Positions 889 to 64,000 of a stretch of 64,000 nucleotides of DNA are shown here, piece after piece. Position 1 is the first letter of the stretch, and each line of letters opens with the position of its first letter. Source of the stretch: an uncultured Gammaproteobacteria bacterium (GTDB taxonomy: Bacteria; Patescibacteriota; Microgenomatia; Levybacterales; GWA1-39-11); the NCBI GenBank assembly GCA_964409875.1, contig CAYPEN010000003.1, positions 557 through 64,556 on the forward strand. The letters are read 5' to 3'. The notes below the pieces were generated by a model. That model ran no database searches and was not told the origin of the DNA. It saw only the letters and a list, made by a program, of their open reading frames with translations. The position numbers and the translations under genes were made by a program.

Positions 889-1170
889 CTAAGCACAAAT
901 TTGCTTTAAAATTTCACTGTCTAGACGAAGAGTTATAAATTCTCCGTCTTGTGTATTTTTTAACAATTTAAGTACATTTTTTTTAGCAACTTTTCTTCCA
1001 GACAACTTAGTTTGTTGAATTATGAAATGTAGGAGTGGATAGTCACCAATTACATCCCACTTTGGACTAATTCTTAAATCCTTATATATGGAAAAAAGCG
1101 TAGCTTTCCTTATAAGTGAAGTTCTAATAATAGATTTAGTAGATTGTAAATCCTGATATTTGTAATTCAT
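889..1170 (-). CDS. hypothetical protein (ORFan, island cargo)
   Basis: 93-aa ORF, co-oriented with two upstream minus-strand small genes; no recognisable motif. Confidence 0.35.
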   Translation of the reverse strand: MNYKYQDLQSTKSIIRTSLIRKATLFSIYKDLRISPKWDVIGDYPLLHFIIQQTKLSGRKVAKKNVLKLLKNTQDGEFITLRLDSEILKQICA

Positions 1171-1312
1171 AAATACTCTTACACGTGCATTAAATGCTTT
1201 TAATGCACTAAGTTAATTGTTTATTTAATGATTATATTTGTAGGAACTCAGTTTCCCTATGATAGTGAAATTTATTTCTCTATCTCCAGAAATTGATTTC
1301 TCCCCTTGCACA

Positions 1313-1630
1313 TTATTCATATACCCTTAATTGACCTAATTCATAAAGTAAACCTGTGAAGTAGTATGAATTATGTTGTGGGTGTTTACCTGCCTTTTTC
1401 CAACCAATAAGCCTGTTGTCTTTGAGCTCTTTTAGCAAATTACCGATTTGTCTCGTAGATACGCCAATATCCTTTGCAAGAGTGCTTCTACTAGGAAAAC
1501 ATCTCCCGTCAAGACCTGCATATAGCAATAGGTTCATAAGTAAAAGCCTTGCTGTGGGAGAGATATTATTATCCCTAAGCACTTCTCTTAATCCTTCAAA
1601 ACTAATTTTGTATGTTTGACCGTCTTCCAT
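1313..1630 (-). CDS. helix-turn-helix domain protein (phage/plasmid replication-regulator-like)
   Basis: SRSTLAKDIGVSTRQIGNLLKELKDNRLI is a classic HTH (wHTH) segment as in DnaD-like/HTH_36 phage proteins. Confidence 0.5.
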   Translation of the reverse strand: MEDGQTYKISFEGLREVLRDNNISPTARLLLMNLLLYAGLDGRCFPSRSTLAKDIGVSTRQIGNLLKELKDNRLIGWKKAGKHPQHNSYYFTGLLYELGQLRVYE

Positions 1631-1724
1631 AGTCTTTATACGAAAAAGGGTTCGTTTTAATGCTCATGTATTAACTTTAAGCACTAAAACGAACCAAACA
1701 ACACTTACCGAAACTACTATTTAG

Positions 1725-2033
1725 CTAGTCTTTTTTTTGTCGGTATTTTTTTCGCAAATCCTCAATAACTCTTTGTTTTTCTTTCACTGCCTCGTGCATC
1801 ACATTGTCTATTTGTGTCGCAAGTTCATTCTCTTTGGCTTTTTCTGCAAGCTCTTTCAGCCAAGAGGGAGGAACAGCAATAAACGAATTCTCAACGTTAT
1901 AAACGTGAGCATACAAAGGAAAAACGTTTCTGTTGAAATCATTTTTAATCGCGGAGGCACTGGTTTTTGTTTTTGAATTAGAAAGTGCAGAAGCACTTTT
2001 CAATTCAATCTTAATACCAGCAATAAATGACAT
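1725..2033 (-). CDS. hypothetical protein, coiled-coil C-terminus
   Basis: 102-aa ORF, first gene of a leftward operon leaving the divergent promoter region 2034-2241. Confidence 0.35.
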   Translation of the reverse strand: MSFIAGIKIELKSASALSNSKTKTSASAIKNDFNRNVFPLYAHVYNVENSFIAVPPSWLKELAEKAKENELATQIDNVMHEAVKEKQRVIEDLRKKYRQKKD

Positions 2034-2091
2034 GGAGTTAGTATACCATTACTGCGGTATGGTGTCAAGTGCCAAAATAAATCTGCCTTTT

Positions 2092-2100
2092 TGCTATAAT
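2092..2100 (+). promoter_or_regulatory. extended -10 promoter element TGcTATAAT
   Basis: TGCTATAAT at 2092-2100 in divergent intergenic region; would place TSS about 2107, upstream of the GC-rich element. Confidence 0.3.
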
Positions 2101-2139
2101 AACCTTAATTAAGTTGCCTAAACTTACAGAAATGTAGGC

Positions 2140-2243
2140 ATGGCAGAGAAACGTTCAACGCAAAGAACCCTCGTCAGGGCGCGTTGAACGTCATGTTTCC
2201 GAAAGGGGCATGGGGCCGAAAGGCCTACTGACGGGGGCTTTTT
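2140..2243 (+). promoter_or_regulatory. GC-rich structured RNA element (riboswitch-like leader or small RNA); strand not certain
   Basis: About 58% GC over 100 nt in an AT-rich genome. Stem A is 10 bp perfect: CGTTCAACGC (2152-2161) with GCGTTGAACG (2181-2190). Stem B is CCCTCGTCAG (2168-2177) with CTGACGGGGG (2228-2237), 10 bp with one G-U; it crosses stem A, giving a pseudoknot or alternative fold. Two CCGAAAGG GNRA hairpins (2199-2206, 2214-2225). A U-run follows at 2238-2243. Confidence 0.35.
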
Positions 2244-3075
2244 GATAGCCCGAGATTTAACAATGGAAATCCCAAACTGGATTAAAAGTTATTGGAAAAA
2301 AAGTAAGTTCTCCAAAGCTGTTGTTATGATACTTGCTATGATTTTATGGCCAATAACTGCAGTGATTATATGGACTTCAATAAAAGGAGTAAAAAAAGAA
2401 TGGAAGAGGAAAATTTTACAAAGTATCTTCATATTCTTATCAGTTCTTTTTTTAATAACCTGGCTAGTATTTGCACTGGGAATTGTAGTTTCAAATAAAA
2501 ATAAATCGAATGTAAGCAGTGTCAGTCCTACACCTATGCTTACTCAGCAAGGTGATTGTCTTGGGCCAGACGGGAAATGGATACAATTAAGTCCCGATGA
2601 ATGTCAGAAATTCAACGACGCATGGAAAAACCCTCCCCAACAAAACCAAGAACAAACGCAGGCACAACAACCTACATCTACACCAGTTATAAGCAAGGAA
2701 TATGACAAAAACAAAGGAAACAACTATGTAGCGGCACAGGCAGCAGAAGCTATGCAGAGCATAATAGATAAAGCCGCTGAAGGGGCAGTGTTAAATGTAT
2801 TCATTGAGCTTTCACCAGAAGACCCAAGTGGAAAAACAGAAGAAGAATATAAAGGCTCATTGACCAGTGCATTTGTACAGATTCAAGTATCTCAATCGTT
2901 CTGGAATAGCTTAACTGATGATTACAAGAAGGATTTGGTTGCAAGCTTTGTAACCAGTGTAGGAAATATTTTCCCAAGACCCTATCCTCATGTTTACGTA
3001 AACAATGGAGTACGCGAAGTAGCAACGGGAGAATACAACCTGCTTAAAAGTGAGGCTCAAGTTAAACTGAAATAG
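2242..3075 (+). CDS. membrane-anchored protein with Gln-rich linker and C-terminal extracytoplasmic domain (alternative start ATG 2263)
   Basis: Two to three N-terminal hydrophobic helices, then a QQNQEQTQAQQ linker and a 150-aa soluble domain; no known motif. Confidence 0.45.
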   Translation: MIARDLTMEIPNWIKSYWKKSKFSKAVVMILAMILWPITAVIIWTSIKGVKKEWKRKILQSIFIFLSVLFLITWLVFALGIVVSNKNKSNVSSVSPTPMLTQQGDCLGPDGKWIQLSPDECQKFNDAWKNPPQQNQEQTQAQQPTSTPVISKEYDKNKGNNYVAAQAAEAMQSIIDKAAEGAVLNVFIELSPEDPSGKTEEEYKGSLTSAFVQIQVSQSFWNSLTDDYKKDLVASFVTSVGNIFPRPYPHVYVNNGVREVATGEYNLLKSEAQVKLK

Positions 3076-3393
3076 GTTTTCGACAAGAATTTTTCCCTAT
3101 TTTTTCAAAGCGACTTTTAGGAAAACCTATAATGGCCGAGAATTGACTTCGTCTATAGTAGGTTAATCTAATAATAGAAAATCCGACCAGGCCCTATATA
3201 TACTTAGTAGAAGTTTTGAAATATAAATCAGAAACAGACATTAACTTAGTTGATTCTTATCAAATATTATAAACTCTTATGTCTTTTGATGAAAAACTAT
3301 ATAAACTTTGTATACAAAATATATACATTTATATTTTATTGATATATTTTTTCCTGAAATATCATACTCGATTTGTTAGAATAGTCGTTAAAT

Positions 3394-3957
3394 ATGGCAA
3401 AAATCTCGACAGACCACCTGTACTCGCTCAATTTTGAGTACTTAATGATGATGTTGTTTCCGAAGGGAGATAGTCCTGTTGCATCTTTTGCAGACGATGA
3501 GCAATATGTTAAAACATGGTTGAGAAAAGCAATTAAGAAGTTTATCAAAGAAGTTAACACACTCGATACAACTCAAAGACATAAAGATGTATTGATACTT
3601 CATCTTGAGAGCATAAACCGTCGATTAAACGGTGGAAACATTTGGGAGATAATTTTTGATTTATTCAACGTAATAGCTCGACTATTTGGCTACGATTATC
3701 ATAAGGGTCAAAAGCTTTTAACAGCTATATATTCAGAAACACCTTATCAACATTTTTGGAGTGGATTGCATGCGGGTGAAGACTGGAAAAAGCAAAACGG
3801 AATAAGAGAATCTTTTATCAGAAAAAGGATAGAGTTAATTAAGCAGTTGAAAAAAGATGGGTATTCGACTTTTGATATATCGCAGATATTCAATACAACT
3901 GACTACGAAATCAAGAAAATACTTAGAGAAACGAGCCGAAGTAAAAGGGAAAAGTGA
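3394..3957 (+). CDS. hypothetical protein, possible C-terminal HTH
   Basis: 187-aa ORF; the C-terminal DGYSTFDISQIFNTTDYEIKKILRE resembles a sigma region-4-like HTH (weak). Confidence 0.4.
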   Translation: MAKISTDHLYSLNFEYLMMMLFPKGDSPVASFADDEQYVKTWLRKAIKKFIKEVNTLDTTQRHKDVLILHLESINRRLNGGNIWEIIFDLFNVIARLFGYDYHKGQKLLTAIYSETPYQHFWSGLHAGEDWKKQNGIRESFIRKRIELIKQLKKDGYSTFDISQIFNTTDYEIKKILRETSRSKREK

Positions 3958-4074
3958 TGCATGGTTTCATAGCGTGAAAAGTGGAACTATAAGACACTCC
4001 ATTTTTTTATCTAGCTTCAAAACTGATTTTATGTCGCATAACTAGCTTCATTTTTATGTCTTAGAATATTTATT

Positions 4075-4581
4075 TTGCGTCATGAGATATGGTTTGATAT
4101 AGAGCTTCAAATTAAACACACATATTTAAAAAGAGCATTTGCTATAATTGAATTAATGATTGTCAATATATTAATTTCTGTAGTAGCTTATCTTGTTTTA
4201 ATGTATGTGAGCGTTAATTTACTGGGTCTTCTTGTAAGAGGCTTGTTTACAAATCCTGAACTCGATAAATTAAAAAGCGAAGGACACGAATTCATTAAAA
4301 AAGAAATTGAAAAATCCCAGCGAGCTGACAAATGGATTAATGTTTTTGCACTGATATTAATCATTGGGTATTTTTATGCGTTGTTTCATTTTTGGAATAT
4401 AGGAGTGGTTGCAGTGGCGATAATAATTATGGTGGGAAGACTACCTGATTTAGTATGGGAGATTAAACATGGGAAAAAAGTTGACCCTAATTTGATGAAG
4501 CATAATGCAATGTACTACATTACGTCTTTTTTACCATGGATTGGATTACCTCTTTTGTATTACTTTCTCTATGTAATCTAG
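4075..4581 (+). CDS. hypothetical integral membrane protein (about 4 TM)
   Basis: Hydrophobic helices IIELMIVNILISVVAYLVLMYVSV, INVFALILIIGYFYALF, GVVAVAIIIMVG, YYITSFLPWIGLPLLYYFLYVI. Confidence 0.4.
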   Translation: MRHEIWFDIELQIKHTYLKRAFAIIELMIVNILISVVAYLVLMYVSVNLLGLLVRGLFTNPELDKLKSEGHEFIKKEIEKSQRADKWINVFALILIIGYFYALFHFWNIGVVAVAIIIMVGRLPDLVWEIKHGKKVDPNLMKHNAMYYITSFLPWIGLPLLYYFLYVI

Positions 4582-4585
4582 GAGT

Positions 4586-5065
4586 ATGAGCATCGATTTA
4601 ACTAAAAGAGCAGAAAAACTTGACAATATGCGTTTGAAAGGTATGGCCGAAAAATTATCGCTAGAAGAGGCTGAAAATATTGTATCAGTTTGGGGAGTAC
4701 ATCTTGAGCATATGGGTGGTATTAGAATGCTTTTTGGGATTAGTATTCCCGAATCAATTCTGCCTTATCCAATTGTTATTCTACAGGGCGCTCTAAATAA
4801 AATGGAAGCATATTATCATGCACAAGGTATACATGATAGGGTTAAACTTCTTGAGAGTACTGAAATGGAGCTTATGCAATATACAACTGATGAAGAGGCG
4901 ATAAAGGAAGCATTAACAAATTTGGGTAATAATAAAATGAAGGATGTTTTAATTGAGGGTCTTAAAGATTATCAAAAAACCCAAATGGAAAATGGCTATT
5001 TAGTAGATAAGAGACTCTTTAAACTAAGTAAACCCCGTATAGAAGAACTTATAAAAGACATTTAG
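4586..5065 (+). CDS. hypothetical protein
   Basis: 159-aa ORF starting 5 nt after the preceding gene; no known motif. Confidence 0.4.
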   Translation: MSIDLTKRAEKLDNMRLKGMAEKLSLEEAENIVSVWGVHLEHMGGIRMLFGISIPESILPYPIVILQGALNKMEAYYHAQGIHDRVKLLESTEMELMQYTTDEEAIKEALTNLGNNKMKDVLIEGLKDYQKTQMENGYLVDKRLFKLSKPRIEELIKDI

Positions 5066-5189: not shown

Positions 5190-5198
5190 TGTTATAAT
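5190..5198 (+). promoter_or_regulatory. extended -10 element TGtTATAAT abutting the start codon (possible leaderless transcript)
   Basis: TGTTATAAT at 5190-5198, only 6 nt before ATG 5205. Confidence 0.3.
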
Positions 5199-5204
5199 CC
5201 TGGT

Positions 5205-6278
5205 ATGCAGAAGAGGTCAATTAAGAAAGCAAAATTTAGAAGACGACAGGTAGAAAGAATATTTAAATACGAAGTCAGTAAAAGACTTTATCTAAAAAAG
5301 GCACGGTACGAAAGGCTTCCAAATAGAATTAAACAGGGCAGAGGAAGAAGATTTATAAATGATTCTAAACACGTTAAGCAGGAAATTTGTGAGGCCCCTG
5401 CTACATTTTCACTAATTGAAAATACTACAGAAGTGATATCTTATTTTGATAAAGCCAAGAAATCCCTTGCGACAGATATACCAGTCGATTTTGATTTAAG
5501 CAAGATTGTAAAAATGGGACCTGAAACCCTAACATATTTATGTGCCTTCATTAATGAAGATAAACTTACGCACAACACCGCCCTCAAGGGCAATACGCCA
5601 AAAGACCCAAAAGTAAAGGAAATGTTCCAGAAGTCAGGCTTCTATAATTTTGTGATGTTAGATTCAGTACCTGAATATTATAGCAGGGAAATTGCTGATG
5701 ATATGATTCATAGAATAACAAGGGAAAAAGTAGAGTCTGAATTGGCAGGTTTAGTTTGTAAGGCGGCTATGAAACATTCGTTTGATAGCGAGGATTTTAA
5801 AAAGCAAAACTTCTATCCAATCTTGATTGAGTGTATGGCTAACACACTGAACCATGCTAATTACATAAACAAAGAAGAAATTTATAATTGGTGGCTTCTT
5901 GCTTACAAAGAGCCTAACACAAAAATTACAAAATTTTGTTTTATTGATTTGGGAGTAGGTATATTTAGTTCGTTGGAAGATAAGTACAAAAAAAAGAAAC
6001 TGGCCGAACTATTAAAATGGTTTATTCCAAATAAACATAAGGAAACTTTAGAGAGAATATTTAAAGGTGAGAGAAGAACATCTACAAAGAACTTAAGAGG
6101 GAGAGGGCAAGGGCTTAATTACATTTATCAACTCGTTAAAAAAGATGGAACAATTAAGAATTTTACACTCATAAGTAATGATATTATTGCTAAAATCGGG
6201 TATAATACAGGGGACAAGATTGTGAAAATGAATAAAAATTTCATTGGGACAATGTATTATTGGGAAATAGCTCCGTAA
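5205..6278 (+). CDS. GHKL-superfamily ATPase (anti-sigma-factor serine-kinase-like) with basic 200-aa N-terminal extension
   Basis: Bergerat-fold motifs: N-box ECMANTLNHAN, G1 FIDLGVGI (DxGxG), G2 GRGQGLNYI (GxGxGL). The N-terminus is K/R-rich. Confidence 0.6.
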   Translation: MQKRSIKKAKFRRRQVERIFKYEVSKRLYLKKARYERLPNRIKQGRGRRFINDSKHVKQEICEAPATFSLIENTTEVISYFDKAKKSLATDIPVDFDLSKIVKMGPETLTYLCAFINEDKLTHNTALKGNTPKDPKVKEMFQKSGFYNFVMLDSVPEYYSREIADDMIHRITREKVESELAGLVCKAAMKHSFDSEDFKKQNFYPILIECMANTLNHANYINKEEIYNWWLLAYKEPNTKITKFCFIDLGVGIFSSLEDKYKKKKLAELLKWFIPNKHKETLERIFKGERRTSTKNLRGRGQGLNYIYQLVKKDGTIKNFTLISNDIIAKIGYNTGDKIVKMNKNFIGTMYYWEIAP

Positions 6279-6613
6279 TTATGAACTACACAGATATAAA
6301 AATTGCTGAAGATTTTAGTATTTACCCTGGTGCAAGATATAAGACTGATGGTAATTTCTCGGGAGAGCAGTTTTATGAAGATTTATTAAAGTCTAAACTA
6401 ACCGAAATTTGGGACGATGAGGATAAAGGAATAAGAATTGATTTTGATGGTACCTTTGGATACGCATCGTCTTTTATATCAGAAGTATTTATTAGAACCG
6501 TCAAGGATTTTAAAGACAAAAAAAAGATTAAAAAAAAGCTAGAATTTAAATCTGATGATGAGCCGTTATTAATAAAAGCGATTTTGCAAATAATAGACGA
6601 GGCAGAGGAATAG
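6260..6613 (+). CDS. STAS-like small protein (anti-sigma-antagonist-like, DUF4325-type)
   Basis: 117 aa; IRIDFDGTFGYASSFISEVF resembles the STAS phospho-serine loop (DxSGVxFxDSSGL). The start overlaps the upstream stop by 19 nt. Confidence 0.5.
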   Translation: MGNSSVIMNYTDIKIAEDFSIYPGARYKTDGNFSGEQFYEDLLKSKLTEIWDDEDKGIRIDFDGTFGYASSFISEVFIRTVKDFKDKKKIKKKLEFKSDDEPLLIKAILQIIDEAEE

Positions 6614-7200
6614 TGAGATTTAATAAAACGACATTATTAGTTATATTATGTATTTATCTCTTTGGTGTAATATCTGGGGCTTTTCTGAATGATATTCCAA
6701 ATATTACTTTTAAAAAAGAGATGTCTTTGGGTGAAACCGCAAATTTTATTTTAGCCGTATTTATTGCTATATATATACCTTTTTTCCTCGATAAGAAAAT
6801 TAATAACAAAAGAATTGAGAAGGATATCATTATACAAGCCAGTGGTAATTTAAATGGTGAATTATATGATTTAAAGAAAACAATAATTGACCCTCTTCAC
6901 GTTTCTCAAAGAATAGTTAAGCAAAGCGAGGTCAAAACTATACTAATCAGAACCAGGAGTATAAGCAATATGTTGGGCCTATTAATAAAAAATGTTAAAC
7001 CCTATGTATCAGATAAAGATATAAAGAAAATTACAGAGGAACTTGAGAATAACCAACTTACATTTTGGACAGACTTAACCTTCAATCTTAAAGACAAAAA
7101 TCCTAAAATTACACAAGAGGTCTATCTTCGAACAGAGAAAAATATAAATACTTATTCAGGGAATATATCCGCTTTGATAATGCGTATTAATGGTTTTTGA
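6613..7200 (+). CDS. membrane protein, two N-terminal TM helices plus soluble domain; GTG start overlapping the upstream stop by 1 nt
   Basis: TLLVILCIYLFGVISGAF and ANFILAVFIAIYIPFFL helices; 1-nt overlap (taGTG) indicates translational coupling. Confidence 0.5.
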   Translation: MRFNKTTLLVILCIYLFGVISGAFLNDIPNITFKKEMSLGETANFILAVFIAIYIPFFLDKKINNKRIEKDIIIQASGNLNGELYDLKKTIIDPLHVSQRIVKQSEVKTILIRTRSISNMLGLLIKNVKPYVSDKDIKKITEELENNQLTFWTDLTFNLKDKNPKITQEVYLRTEKNINTYSGNISALIMRINGF

Positions 7201-7456
7201 GTGATTTTATATTATATTGACTTCTGAATTCTAAACTGCTAAATTCATCTTGTACTTTGAAGACATAAAAACACTTTCTGTTTCAAGGAGTGTGTAATAA
7301 GTATTTGAAGCTAAAAACAAGTCCTGTCTTATAAATCCCTGCATTTCTAAGGCAAAAAAACTAGGCGGAATACTGCATGTCTGTCGCCATTTCAAGACAG
7401 AAGAATAAAATTTCTCAGATTCGATAGGATTTTGCGAAAGTGATATTATAGCTCGT

Positions 7457-60734: not shown

Positions 60735-61469
60735 CTAGGGGTTGTAGGTCACTTTTAATTGTTTTTGTGTGGTAAGTCCTGCCGGGTTTTGAGCCTGAAT
60801 TAGGATTTGGTTATCTCCATCATTAAGGGTTAATTGATAAGAAAATTTGCCGTCATTATCAACAATTGCAATGAACGAATTTATGCTAACAGTGTTCTCT
60901 GGGTCAGTTTGACCTGTTACCGTAATTGTCTTGTCAGCCCTCGTTAGTGTAGCATTATCAATAGGAAAAGTAACTTCAAGTTTGGGTTTATCATTAATGT
61001 AATTAACCTGGAAATCTGGGGTAAATGCGCTTGATTTATTCCCTTTGCTAAATCGGGCCTTTATTGTATTGGCTCCCTTTGCAAGCGATATATTCTGTAC
61101 AGAAAAATCTAATTTGTCATGAATTTCAACTTCTTTAGCCAATTCATCGTCTACATACACTTCAACTGTTCCACCCTTGTCCGGTGCATAGCCGTTAAAG
61201 TTAATTTTTGCGCTTTGCGTAGCATCAGGTATTCCGCTAAGAGTAGGGGGCTGGAGAAGTTCGTGTCCCACTAATTGGCTCCCATCACTTTTGTCTCCTC
61301 CTCTCAATGTGTAAATCGCGTTACCAAATATATTGATAAGTCCCGGTCCAAACTGAATAAGTATTCCAATCAGTAGTATTATGCCAAGTGTAAAAAAAAG
61401 CGCTTGTCTTTTGTTCTGTTTTTCGCTGGTTCTTGCGAGGCGTGATGTTCGCATGCGGCGTTGTATCAT
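60735..61469 (-). CDS. membrane-anchored beta-rich (Ig-like?) protein of unknown function downstream of atpC
   Basis: N-terminal TM FFTLGIILLIGILIQF then a T/N/V-rich domain. Confidence 0.4.
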   Translation of the reverse strand: MIQRRMRTSRLARTSEKQNKRQALFFTLGIILLIGILIQFGPGLINIFGNAIYTLRGGDKSDGSQLVGHELLQPPTLSGIPDATQSAKINFNGYAPDKGGTVEVYVDDELAKEVEIHDKLDFSVQNISLAKGANTIKARFSKGNKSSAFTPDFQVNYINDKPKLEVTFPIDNATLTRADKTITVTGQTDPENTVSINSFIAIVDNDGKFSYQLTLNDGDNQILIQAQNPAGLTTQKQLKVTYNP

Positions 61470-61474
61470 AGCTC

Positions 61475-61879
61475 TTAATGACGTTTAATTTTGTCTGCCA
61501 CCTTAAGCTCCAGTAAGGACTTTTGTAAATTTTTCTCTGCCATTATCAACTCCGCGGTGGTCTGTTTGTTTTTCAGTATTTCTTCGGCTAATTTTTTGGC
61601 CTCAAGAGAACGAGCAGTCTGAATTGAGTCTGCCTTAACGGCGTAATCGGACAAAACCATCACCGAGTCTTTTCTTACTTCGAGAAATCCTCCCAATATA
61701 GCAATTATAGTTTCCTTTCCTCCCTTTTTTATTGTAATAGTTCCTTCGGATAACTTAGCAAACAATGGTACATGGTGGGTTAGTACTGAAATTTCACCTT
61801 TGAATGTCGGAAGTTGTACTTCATCAATAGTATCCGAAAAAACCTGCCCTTCCGGAGAGAGAATTTTTAATTCGAACAT
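61475..61879 (-). CDS. atpC: F0F1 ATP synthase subunit epsilon
   Basis: ILSPEGQVF...V.LPT.GEISVL.HH.PLFAKL; directly after atpD. Confidence 0.85.
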   Translation of the reverse strand: MFELKILSPEGQVFSDTIDEVQLPTFKGEISVLTHHVPLFAKLSEGTITIKKGGKETIIAILGGFLEVRKDSVMVLSDYAVKADSIQTARSLEAKKLAEEILKNKQTTAELIMAEKNLQKSLLELKVADKIKRH

Positions 61880-61882
61880 AGT

Positions 61883-63337
<1,455 letters not shown>

Positions 63338-63339
63338 GC

Positions 63340-64000
63340 TCATATTTGTATACTATTTGAAAGATCAAGAATTTCGTTAGTTATTCTCTCTTGGCGTGAC
63401 TTATTATAAACAAGGTTGAGGTATTCAGCAATATCGGAGGCATTATTCTTTGCATTCTGCATCGCCACCATTTGGGCTGCTTGTTGGGAAGTATACGAAA
63501 CGAGGAGTGCGTTATAGAGTTGTACCTCAAGGTAGTACGGGAGAAGCTCCTCTAAAATAGTTTCTCTTCCGGGTTCGAGTAAAGAGGTGGCATCGTCAGG
63601 TTGCGCGACCGTTTCTTCAATCTGTAGAGGGAGGAGTTGTTTAACAACAGGAGTTTGTGTGAATAGCGAAACGAAATCGGCATAAAGAACCGAAACAGTT
63701 GCAACATTCCCTGATTTGATTTCCTCGTCTATAATGTTCTTAAGCTCATAGACAAGCGTATAATCCGGTAAGGAATTTCCCATTGGATAGGTAAGTAATA
63801 GCTCAAAACTTAACTTCGATGCAAAAAGCGAAGCCTTTTTTCCCACCGTAACCACTTTGGTGTTTCTGTCATCAACTTCAATAAGTTTTTTGTAAATATT
63901 GGTATTAAGTGAGCCACAAAGTCCCCTGTCAGGACTTATTACAATAAGAAGTTGATGGGCGGCAAGTTTCTTATCAAGGTACGGGTGGGAAAATTTACTT
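63340..64000 (-). CDS. atpG: F0F1 ATP synthase subunit gamma, N-terminus beyond window end
   Basis: C-terminal AMQNAKNNASDIAEYLNLVYNKSRQERITNEILD signature; the frame stays open to nt 64000 (SPDRGLCGSLNTNI seen). Confidence 0.8.
   Translation of the reverse strand, partial: SKFSHPYLDKKLAAHQLLIVISPDRGLCGSLNTNIYKKLIEVDDRNTKVVTVGKKASLFASKLSFELLLTYPMGNSLPDYTLVYELKNIIDEEIKSGNVATVSVLYADFVSLFTQTPVVKQLLPLQIEETVAQPDDATSLLEPGRETILEELLPYYLEVQLYNALLVSYTSQQAAQMVAMQNAKNNASDIAEYLNLVYNKSRQERITNEILDLSNSIQI

What the first reader, a model, noticed from the sequence alone, without database searches (positions are those of the whole stretch)
5190..7200. Coupled three-gene module in an integrase-linked island: GHKL kinase-like ATPase, STAS-like protein and membrane protein
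Three ORFs are packed with 19-nt and 1-nt overlaps (5205..6278, 6260..6613, 6613..7200). Gene 1 carries a complete Bergerat ATP-binding fold (ECMANTLNHAN N-box, FIDLGVGI G1, GRGQGLNYI G2) of the RsbW/SpoIIAB anti-sigma serine-kinase type behind a novel, highly basic 200-aa N-terminus. Gene 2 (117 aa) has a STAS / anti-sigma-antagonist-like loop IRIDFDGTFGYASSFISEVF with candidate phospho-acceptor serines. Gene 3 is a two-helix membrane protein. Kinase-plus-STAS partner-switching pairs normally control a sigma factor; here no sigma factor is present. The module instead sits among ORFans next to a tyrosine integrase, with a third membrane component and an extended -10 box abutting the start codon. 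This architecture matches no named defence or regulatory system I recognise. It is a good candidate for an undescribed phage-defence/abortive-infection switch or a mobile-element lysis/lysogeny regulator.
Basis: partly seen in the sequence, partly recalled or inferred. Interest (0 to 1): 0.8.

Follow-up and report, generated by a model that had tools for sequence, protein, structure and literature searches.

The report
Mobile kinase–STAS–membrane protein switch cassette
This is a real, widely spread three-gene cassette (a serine-kinase-like ATPase, its small STAS-type partner and a two-helix membrane protein) carried on a small integrated mobile element; it is most likely a phosphorylation-controlled toxin or phage-defence switch related to the recently described VapKSC system, but with an uncharacterised membrane protein in place of the nuclease.

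Summary
Three tightly packed genes lie at 5205-6278, 6260/6281-6613 and 6613-7200.

- **Gene 2:** a Pfam DUF4325 STAS-like protein with an invariant Ser71 and Ser/Thr70.
- **Gene 3:** a 2-TM protein with a cytoplasmic tail.

The same ordered triad recurs in nearly all of about 80 species genomes across several phyla, and on a plasmid, phages and viral contigs. The kinase family has 3,231 clusters at 50% identity. Neighbours vary. No sigma factor recurs, and integrases, resolvases, RM and Abi genes are the commonest neighbours. In the window the triad is the last cargo of a ~7.9-kb element integrated at the 3' end of ftsZ.

The closest known system is VapKSC/CapKS (EMBO J 2026). VapK and gene 1 hit the same PHROG, VapS is DUF4325, and its phospho-Ser48 aligns with Ser70. 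The third gene differs: PIN toxin there, membrane protein here.

Best reading: a phospho-switch that releases a membrane effector. This is inferred, not shown. Novelty: new variant of a known kind.

The parts
5190..5198 (+). Extended -10-like box TGTTATAAT, 6 nt upstream of the gene 1 ATG. It could be the cassette's own promoter, giving a leaderless or very short-leader mRNA.
   Evidence: Read directly from the sequence. There is no -35 match. The box is not conserved in homologous loci, and the scan shows no enrichment of promoter-like sites over shuffles.
5205..5369 (+). Gene 1, residues 1-55: polybasic N-terminal helix (23 K/R in the first 59 residues).
   Evidence: The AF2 model has a helix at 6-52 with pLDDT above 90. 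All 76 homologues examined carry a K/R-rich N-terminus of about 50-60 aa or longer.
5379..5720 (+). Gene 1, residues ~59-172: internal STAS-like domain.
5736..6275 (+). Gene 1, residues ~178-357: GHKL (Bergerat) ATP-binding domain of the SpoIIAB/RsbW serine-kinase type. N-box E209/N213/H217 lies at 5829-5855, G1 D248-G250-G252 at 5946-5960 and G2 R300-G301-G303 at 6102-6113.
6281..6613 (+). Gene 2: DUF4325 STAS-like protein, 110 aa from ATG 6281 or 117 aa from the alternative TTG at 6260. Candidate phospho-acceptors are Ser70 (6467-6469) and Ser71 (6470-6472), numbered on the 117-aa form.
6613..7200 (+). Gene 3: membrane protein of 195 aa. TM1 is residues 7-25 (6631-6687), TM2 is residues 41-59 (6733-6789), followed by a cytoplasmic tail of about 135 aa. 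Thr156 (7078-7080) is the only nearly invariant residue.
   Evidence: Hydropathy gives 2 TM segments in 60 of 73 homologues, with basic residues flanking the hairpin on the N- and C-terminal sides. The gene always directly follows gene 2. It has no Pfam, PADLOC or NCBIfam match.
7326..7411 (.). Right border (attR-like) of the integrative element: a degenerate copy of the ftsZ 3' end at 7326-7363, plus an 18-nt repeat at 7394-7411.
   Evidence: It forms a 38-nt direct repeat (82% identity) and an 18-nt repeat (94%) with the true ftsZ 3' end, which lies just upstream of the integrase in the longer contig L089.
82..714 (+). C-terminal part of the element's tyrosine integrase. The gene is 340 aa in the source contig and the window starts inside it.
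   Evidence: Pfam Phage_integrase E 2.1e-29. The full gene is seen in L089 and L090.

Best explanation
The three genes form a self-contained, horizontally mobile phospho-switch cassette of the same kind as VapKSC.

- **Gene 1** is a STAS-GHKL serine/threonine kinase with an added polybasic N-terminal helix.
- **Gene 2** is its single-domain STAS (DUF4325) substrate.
- **Gene 3** is a 2-TM protein whose cytoplasmic tail is the regulated partner.

Proposed mechanism (inferred by analogy):
1. In resting cells, unphosphorylated gene 2 protein binds and holds the membrane protein inactive.
2. An infection or stress signal activates the kinase. The signal may be a nucleic acid sensed by the basic tail or the STAS-GHKL groove.
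3. The kinase phosphorylates Ser70 or Ser71 at the N-terminus of helix alpha2 of gene 2.
4. The complex dissociates, and the freed membrane protein oligomerises and damages the membrane. The result is growth arrest or abortive infection, or equivalently post-segregational killing that stabilises the element.

Shown here: folds, motifs, homology to VapK and VapS, co-inheritance of the three genes, carriage on mobile elements, and absence of a recurrent sigma factor.

Inferred: kinase activity, the substrate, the binding of gene 2 to gene 3, toxicity, and the trigger.
For: **Fold and motifs**
- N-box, G1 and G2 residues are invariant or nearly so (70-76 of 76 homologues).

**Gene 2 and its link to VapS**
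- Gene 2 is DUF4325. VapS, taken from the paper's supplement, is also DUF4325 at 2.7e-17.
- The proven VapS phospho-site Ser48 aligns with Ser70 in two independent alignments. The Ser/Thr70-Ser71-Phe72 motif is essentially invariant.

**Gene 1 and its link to VapK**
- VapK (3.6e-38) and gene 1 (2.1e-28) match the same phrog_3364 over nearly its full length.
- A global hhalign is collinear over STAS plus GHKL, with all motifs in register.

**Recurrence as a unit**
- The triad recurs in the same order and tightly packed in nearly all of 80 genome loci with enough sequence. Where the gene 3 profile misses the third ORF, it is still a 2-TM protein of about 185-205 aa.
- Pairwise identity matrices of the three genes correlate (r 0.72-0.84). 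For the two pairs put through the permutation test, none of 500 permutations reached the observed value.

**Mobility and neighbourhood**
- Flanks are heterogeneous. The most recurrent neighbours are resolvases, integrases, RM, Abi, TA and relaxase genes.
- The triad is on Leptospira plasmid p4 next to an MNT/HepT toxin-antitoxin pair, in Marinobacter phage AS1 next to Cro/CI, in a Helicobacter prophage, and in IMG/VR viral contigs.
- In the window it is cargo of a ~7.9-kb integrase element bounded by att-like repeats.

**Precedent**
- VapKSC works by exactly this logic and protects against a phage (PMC13373217).
Against: - No experiment or complex model links gene 2 to gene 3 or shows toxicity.
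- Sequence similarity to VapK and VapS is remote. hhalign probabilities are only 7-23%, and the gene 2 profile hits VapS at E 0.17 in a PDB-wide search.
- The aromatic residue that senses ssDNA in CapK (W68) and VapK (F54) aligns with a variable position, Lys in the window. The trigger is therefore unknown.
- Gene 3 is very poorly conserved (mean pairwise identity 19%) and resembles no known pore or toxin.
- The defence-gene association was counted only among the two nearest neighbours on each side, without a background control.
- PADLOC has no model for any of the three proteins.
Confidence: 0.55

Rival explanations
1. The module is a signal-input module rather than a toxin module. The membrane protein is the sensor, detecting for example envelope perturbation or phage DNA injection. 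It controls the kinase/STAS partner switch, and the output is something else: the polybasic helix of the kinase binding nucleic acid, or a host protein sequestered by the kinase as in SpoIIAB/RsbW.
For: - The kinase is structurally closest to the anti-sigma factors that act by sequestering a partner.
- Every homologue keeps a long K/R-rich N-terminal segment that could be an output or nucleic-acid-binding element.
- Gene 3 evolves fastest (19% mean identity), as expected for a protein that contacts variable external cues.
- Some phage K-S pairs lack a recognisable membrane partner.
Against: - No recurrent candidate output gene, sigma factor or DNA-binding domain accompanies the triad.
- The external loop between the two TM helices is only about 15 residues, so there is little to sense with.
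- In the one characterised relative, the third gene is the effector.
Confidence: 0.2
2. The biochemical switch is the same, but the biological role is selfish. The cassette acts as an addiction or stabilisation module, or as a prophage superinfection-exclusion or lysis-timing module, for the mobile element that carries it. It would not be a host anti-phage system.
For: - It sits at the end of a small integrase element in the window.
- It is next to integrases or resolvases in many loci.
- It is on a plasmid beside another toxin-antitoxin pair.
- It lies in the immunity or integrase regions of temperate phages.
- A small membrane protein under post-translational control resembles a holin/antiholin arrangement (inference).
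Against: - Many copies lie in chromosomal contexts with no nearby mobility gene among the nearest neighbours.
- RM and Abi neighbours suggest defence islands.
- The two roles are not mutually exclusive.
Confidence: 0.15
3. It is an ordinary housekeeping partner-switching pair (anti-sigma factor and anti-anti-sigma factor) that controls a sigma factor encoded elsewhere.
For: The kinase and STAS folds are those of SpoIIAB/RsbW and SpoIIAA/RsbV.
Against: - No sigma factor or PP2C phosphatase is in the island or among recurrent neighbours of about 70 loci.
- Distribution is patchy across phyla, with phage and plasmid copies.
- The kinase carries an extra STAS domain and a basic tail that anti-sigma factors lack.
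Confidence: 0.03

Closest known systems
VapKSC (VapK STAS-GHKL kinase, VapS STAS antitoxin, VapC PIN toxin; Chambers et al., EMBO J 2026, PMC13373217)
   Same: - It is a three-gene operon in the order kinase, small STAS protein, effector.
- The kinase has fused STAS and GHKL domains, and both kinases match phrog_3364.
- The substrate is a DUF4325 protein of about 110-116 aa, with the conserved Ser/Thr at the same aligned position.
- Both are often near other defence genes or on mobile DNA.
   Different: - The third gene is a 2-TM membrane protein, not a PIN nuclease.
- The kinase has an extra polybasic N-terminal helix of about 55 aa.
- The ssDNA-contacting aromatic residue (VapK F54) is not conserved.
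- Sequence identity is very low (about 16% in the global hhalign).
- Host range is mainly Bacteroidota, Patescibacteria and Acidobacteriota rather than the enterobacterial example.
CapK/CapS transcriptional regulators of immune operons (same paper)
   Same: A STAS-GHKL kinase phosphorylates a STAS-domain partner on the helix alpha2 serine, and both are associated with defence loci.
   Different: - CapK has an N-terminal HTH and CapS has a C-terminal winged HTH and represses a downstream operon.
- Gene 1 has a basic helix instead of an HTH.
- Gene 2 has no DNA-binding domain.
- Nothing but the membrane gene follows it.
SpoIIAB/SpoIIAA and RsbW/RsbV partner-switching modules
   Different: - There is no cognate sigma factor and no PP2C phosphatase.
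- The kinase carries an additional STAS domain and a basic tail.
- A membrane protein is the invariable third partner.
- The genes are mobile rather than core.
SiaB/SiaC (Pseudomonas aeruginosa SiaABCD)
   Different: - The Sia output is a diguanylate cyclase, and the system includes a membrane PP2C phosphatase.
- No such genes accompany this triad.

Membership tests
VapKSC | Kinase with fused STAS and GHKL domains, homologous to VapK | tested here: met
VapKSC | Small single-domain STAS (DUF4325) substrate with a conserved Ser/Thr at the start of helix alpha2 | tested here: met
   Gene 2 is PF14213 at 4.5e-9 and VapS is PF14213 at 2.7e-17. VapS Ser48 aligns with Ser70. Position 70 is Ser/Thr in 78/79 and Ser71 is present in 79/79 homologues.
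VapKSC | Third gene encodes a VapC-like PIN nuclease toxin | tested here: not met
   Gene 3 has no PIN or other Pfam match and is a 2-TM protein. The same holds in nearly all 80 related loci.
VapKSC | Conserved aromatic residue (VapK F54, CapK W68) for ssDNA activation | tested here: not met
   In the hhalign alignment the position falls on a variable column, Lys in the window protein. The alignment is remote, so this is weak evidence.
VapKSC | Kinase phosphorylates the STAS protein, phosphorylation releases the toxin, and the system protects against phage | not testable with these tools
   This needs biochemistry and phage assays. No complex prediction tool was available.
CapK/CapS | N-terminal HTH on the kinase and C-terminal winged HTH on the STAS protein | tested here: not met
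   Gene 1 residues 1-55 form a single polybasic helix. Gene 2 is 110-117 aa and consists only of the STAS-like fold. Pfam finds no HTH in either.
CapK/CapS | Placed upstream of an immune operon that it regulates | tested here: not met
   Only the membrane gene follows. Downstream neighbours differ from locus to locus.
Anti-sigma / anti-anti-sigma partner switch (SpoIIAB-SpoIIAA, RsbW-RsbV) | GHKL serine kinase of the SpoIIAB/RsbW type plus a STAS antagonist | tested here: met
Anti-sigma / anti-anti-sigma partner switch (SpoIIAB-SpoIIAA, RsbW-RsbV) | Cognate sigma factor (and usually a PP2C phosphatase) in the same locus | tested here: not met
   None of the island's ORFs is a sigma factor. No sigma or PP2C family appears among the recurrent families of 246 nearest-neighbour proteins. 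Single occurrences below the listing cut-off cannot be excluded.
Named anti-phage systems in PADLOC-DB v2 | Match of any component to a PADLOC model | tested here: not met
   None of the three proteins matches any family at E up to 1.

The most novel reading that the evidence does not exclude
The triad is a true partner switch in which a membrane pore-former takes the place of the sigma factor. The kinase would hold or directly phosphorylate the membrane protein; its only near-invariant residue is Thr156 in the cytoplasmic tail. The STAS protein would act as the antagonist that decides which partner the kinase engages, and the polybasic tail would sense invading nucleic acid. If so, this is a widespread, unrecognised abortive-infection system (over 3,000 clusters) of Bacteroidota and of the tiny-genome Patescibacteria, with a new effector class.
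Probability: 0.15. Interest if true: 0.75.

Novelty: new variant of a known kind. Interest (0 to 1): 0.6.

Why it matters
If the inferred mechanism holds, the kinase-STAS phospho-switch just discovered in VapKSC/CapKS would not be an enterobacterial curiosity. It would be a modular control unit used across many phyla, plasmids and phages.

This branch is large: 3,231 clusters at 50% identity. It would couple the switch to a membrane effector that has no annotation anywhere.

It would add a defence or addiction system to Bacteroidota and Patescibacteria. It would also give names to three families that are today labelled 'ATP-binding protein', 'STAS-like domain-containing protein' and 'hypothetical protein'.

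Finally, it offers a tractable test case: cultured Flavobacterium, Hymenobacter, Pedobacter and Porphyromonas strains carry the triad. These could be used to ask what signal activates such kinases when the ssDNA-sensing residue is absent.

Tried and rejected
- **Family and PDB sequence searches on gene 1:** Pfam, NCBIfam, PADLOC and PDB sequence searches gave nothing. The fold had to be shown by structure prediction.
- **Gene 2 against the PDB by sequence:** the profiles returned mostly thioredoxin noise. VapS appeared only at E 0.17 with the 6-sequence profile and not at all with the 32-sequence profile.
- **Word-index homologue search:** it badly under-counted the families, finding 41, 32 and 5 proteins. 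The exhaustive HMM search and the genome scan corrected this.
- **tblastn of gene 1 against phage genomes:** nothing found. Phage copies were reached through gene 2, VapK and PHROGs.
- **Other island ORFs:** those at 889-5065 do not travel with the triad elsewhere, so they are not part of the system.
- **Extended -10 as a family feature:** rejected.
- **Terminator and tRNA:** no intrinsic terminator was found after gene 3 and no tRNA lies in the first 20 kb. The element uses the ftsZ 3' end instead.
- **Literature:** searches for DUF4325, STAS-like plus defence, and VapKSC found no description of this triad.
- **Sigma-factor partner switch:** considered and rejected because a sigma factor is absent.
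Full report
**1. What is in the sequence**

The stop of gene 2 shares one base with the GTG of gene 3. For gene 2, the public annotation of the identical protein (P0047, 110 aa) and the N-termini of homologues favour the ATG at 6281. That start lies 2 nt after the gene 1 stop, rather than overlapping it by 19 nt as the TTG would.

TGTTATAAT lies at 5190-5198, 6 nt before the gene 1 ATG. This is compatible with a leaderless transcript. However, it is not a conserved feature of the family, and the consensus scan gives no enrichment of promoter-like sites over shuffles.

**2. Gene 1**

No Pfam, NCBIfam, PADLOC or PDB sequence match was found. An AlphaFold2 model built from 32 homologues is confident (pLDDT 88.7, pTM 0.86) and shows three parts:
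- a single long helix at residues 6-52;
- a beta-alpha repeat domain at about 60-172;
- an alpha/beta sandwich at about 178-357.

They are invariant among 32 close homologues and conserved in 70-76 of 76 broader ones. The low-confidence loop at 291-296 lies just before G2, where an ATP lid would be (inference).

The first 59 residues contain 23 K/R. Every one of the 76 homologues examined has such a K/R-rich N-terminus. So the '200-aa basic N-terminus' is a polybasic helix plus a second STAS domain.

**3. Gene 2**

Gene 2 is Pfam DUF4325, 'STAS-like domain', at E 4.5e-9 and above the gathering score. Its model is very confident (pLDDT 96.2).

In 79 homologues, Ser71 and Phe72 are invariant and position 70 is Ser (60), Thr (18) or Ala (1). 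The motif sits at the start of the helix that follows the central strand IRIDFD. That is where SpoIIAA, RsbV, CapS and VapS are phosphorylated (and established knowledge).

**4. Gene 3**

Gene 3 has no family match. Its features are:
- two hydrophobic segments, 7-25 and 41-59;
- a short loop between them;
- basic residues before TM1 and after TM2;
- a hydrophilic tail of about 135 aa, predicted to be cytoplasmic by the positive-inside rule (inference).

A simple threshold finds two TM segments in 60 of 73 homologues. Gly18/Gly22 in TM1 and Thr156 in the tail (70/73) are the only well-conserved positions.

**5. Recurrence**

The word-index search found only 41, 32 and 5 relatives of genes 1, 2 and 3. 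The exhaustive profile search finds 3,231 representatives of 50%-identity clusters at E up to 1e-3 (1,018 at E up to 1e-30). Of the 150 best listed, most are full-length proteins of 330-365 aa.

A scan of one genome per species found 100 relatives. The 80 loci kept come from Patescibacteria, Bacteroidota (Flavobacterium, Hymenobacter, Pedobacter, Algoriphagus, Chitinophaga, Porphyromonas canoris and others), Acidobacteriota, delta- and gamma-proteobacterial MAGs, Verrucomicrobia and one archaeal MAG.

Local hmmsearch with profiles of the three window genes finds gene 1, gene 2 and gene 3 in that order, abutting or overlapping, in essentially every locus with enough sequence. In the seven loci where the gene 3 profile fails, the next ORF is still a 183-205-aa protein with N-terminal TM segments.

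The pairwise identity matrices of the three proteins are correlated: r 0.84, 0.79 and 0.72. For the gene 1-gene 3 and gene 2-gene 3 pairs put through the permutation test, none of 500 permutations reached the observed value. The genes therefore move and diverge as a unit. Gene 3 diverges fastest (mean identity 19%, against 32% for gene 1 and 42% for gene 2).

**6. Neighbourhood**

I scanned 246 proteins, the two nearest ORFs of at least 100 aa on each side in about 70 loci.
- No family recurs in more than 4 of 135 or 3 of 111 proteins.
- The most frequent families are resolvases (7), tyrosine integrases (5) and ResIII/DEAD helicases.
- Restriction-modification components include HpaII, AccI, Eco57I, N6_Mtase, type I S subunits, GmrSD and type IV enzymes.
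- AAA_21/AbiEii-like ATPases, AbiD, ParE and relaxases also appear.
- No sigma factor or PP2C phosphatase appears among the families listed.

Individual loci show a type ISP RM enzyme, and an NgoPII RM pair plus an RHS toxin. Tyrosine integrases lie directly upstream of the triad in L021 and L028. tRNA genes lie directly upstream in L006 and L008.

These counts have no background control. The association with defence and mobile DNA is therefore suggestive, not demonstrated.

**7. Mobile carriers**

- *Plasmid:* Leptospira interrogans plasmid p4 carries the triad next to an MNT/HepT toxin-antitoxin pair. The three genes are annotated 'ATP-binding protein', 'STAS-like domain-containing protein' and 'hypothetical protein'.
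- *Marinobacter phage AS1:* it has a 371 + 112 + 159-aa version beside Cro/CI. A Helicobacter prophage has a 276 + 107 + 134-aa version. In both, the first two genes score strongly with my profiles, and the third is a small protein with an N-terminal TM segment.
- *Francisella prophage KIRK:* the published gene table lists HP (293 aa), DUF4325 (112 aa) and a TM protein (125 aa), between the repressor and the integrase (PMC7924643).
- *IMG/VR:* two viral contigs carry full triads.
- *PHROGs:* gene 1 falls in phrog_3364 and gene 2 in phrog_5816, both of unknown function.

**8. The window's own context**

The longer contig carrying the identical genes shows this order: ftsW-murG-ftsA-ftsZ, then a 340-aa tyrosine integrase (the window starts inside it), an HTH_36 protein, ORFans, the triad, and then a YgjP-like gene.

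The last 38 nt of ftsZ (…DIPAFLRQKN*) are repeated at 82% identity at window 7326-7363. An 18-nt piece is repeated at 7394-7411. This marks a ~7.9-kb element integrated at the 3' end of ftsZ, whose last operon is the triad.

The other ORFs of the element do not accompany the triad elsewhere.

**9. Comparison with what is known**

A full-text search led to Chambers et al. (EMBO J 2026, PMC13373217).
- CapK (HTH-STAS-GHKL) is activated by ssDNA and phosphorylates CapS (STAS-wHTH).
- VapKSC is a three-gene toxin-antitoxin/anti-phage operon. VapK (STAS-GHKL) phosphorylates VapS Ser48, which releases the PIN toxin VapC.

I took the VapK and VapS sequences from the paper's supplementary AF3 model.
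- VapS is DUF4325 at 2.7e-17, the same Pfam family as gene 2.
- In the hmmsearch and hhalign alignments, VapS F-A-S48-P-F aligns with gene 2 Y-A-S70-S71-F.
- VapK matches phrog_3364 at 3.6e-38 over positions 18-289 of 304. Gene 1 matches the same profile at 2.1e-28 over positions 3-288.
- A global hhalign is collinear across both domains, with N-box, G1, G2 and the C-terminal F-x-G-T in register.

Direct pairwise scores are weak: hhalign probability 7-23%, and E 0.17 for VapS in a PDB-wide search. The relationship is therefore remote homology bridged by profiles.

The differences are clear:
- the third gene is a 2-TM protein rather than a PIN nuclease;
- gene 1 has the polybasic helix;
- the ssDNA-stacking aromatic residue (VapK F54) aligns with a variable position.

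The paper mentions neither membrane partners nor DUF4325. No other paper found describes the triad. PADLOC has no model for it.

**10. Mechanism**

Shown:
- the folds, catalytic motifs and conserved acceptor motif;
- homology to an experimentally characterised kinase-substrate pair;
- obligatory co-occurrence with a membrane protein;
- mobility;
- no recurrent sigma factor.

Inferred by analogy with VapKSC:
- gene 2 binds and silences the membrane protein;
- a signal activates the kinase;
- phosphorylation of Ser70/71 releases the membrane protein;
- the freed protein compromises the membrane, causing abortive infection or post-segregational killing.

I put this at about 0.55. The main rivals are:
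- the membrane protein is the sensor and the output lies elsewhere (0.2);
- the same switch serves the mobile element rather than the host (0.15);
- it is a classical sigma-factor partner switch (0.03).

**11. Verdict**

The claim that nothing like it is known is superseded by VapKSC/CapKS.

What remains new is a very large, unnamed branch with a membrane third component and a polybasic kinase tail. It is spread across Bacteroidota, Patescibacteria, plasmids and phages.

I rate it a new variant of a known kind, with interest 0.6.

Noticed in passing
window 2115-2226 (+); also L024 8822-8945 (+): There is a full-length match to the Rfam LOOT RNA (RF03000): 72.3 bits against a gathering score of 46.4. 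It lies inside the integrative element, in the gap between two divergent ORFs. A second LOOT RNA (74.5 bits) lies about 0.9 kb upstream of the triad in a Saccharibacteria MAG. LOOT has no known function, and it may be a component of small mobile elements in Patescibacteria.
   Followed up: partly
window 7326-7363 and 7394-7411; L089 4282-4322: The last 38 nt of ftsZ, which encode the conserved C-terminal peptide DIPAFLRQKN, are duplicated in degenerate form downstream of the triad. A ~7.9-kb integrase element has therefore inserted into the 3' end of ftsZ, an unusual integration target compared with tRNA genes.
   Followed up: yes
window 1313-1630 (-): A 105-aa HTH_36 protein matches phage replication-initiator and DnaD-like PHROGs (best 1.7e-10). 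This suggests the small element may replicate autonomously after excision.
   Followed up: no
phrog_5816 (match of window 6281-6613): The gene 2 domain matches only positions 340-439 of a 441-position phage family profile. Some phages may therefore encode the DUF4325 domain fused to the C-terminus of a larger protein, possibly a kinase-STAS fusion.
   Followed up: no
L093 2501-3708 (Burkholderia phage vB_E188); L094 2411-3764 (Marinitoga phage MPV1): VapK-like kinase plus small STAS gene pairs sit right next to the integrase or recombinase of temperate phages. They have no recognisable PIN or TM third gene, so two-gene versions of the module appear to exist.
   Followed up: partly
window 7078-7080 (gene 3 Thr156): Thr156, in a Y/F-x4-T context, is the only nearly invariant residue (70 of 73) of the otherwise very variable membrane protein. 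It is a conceivable second kinase target.
   Followed up: no
L006 5913-5986; L008 9517-9590: tRNA genes lie immediately upstream of the triad in two other genomes. This fits insertion of the cassette at island hot spots.
   Followed up: no
window 61000-64000: G+C rises to 0.43 at the end of the window, against about 0.33-0.35 elsewhere. No Rfam family reached threshold there.
   Followed up: no
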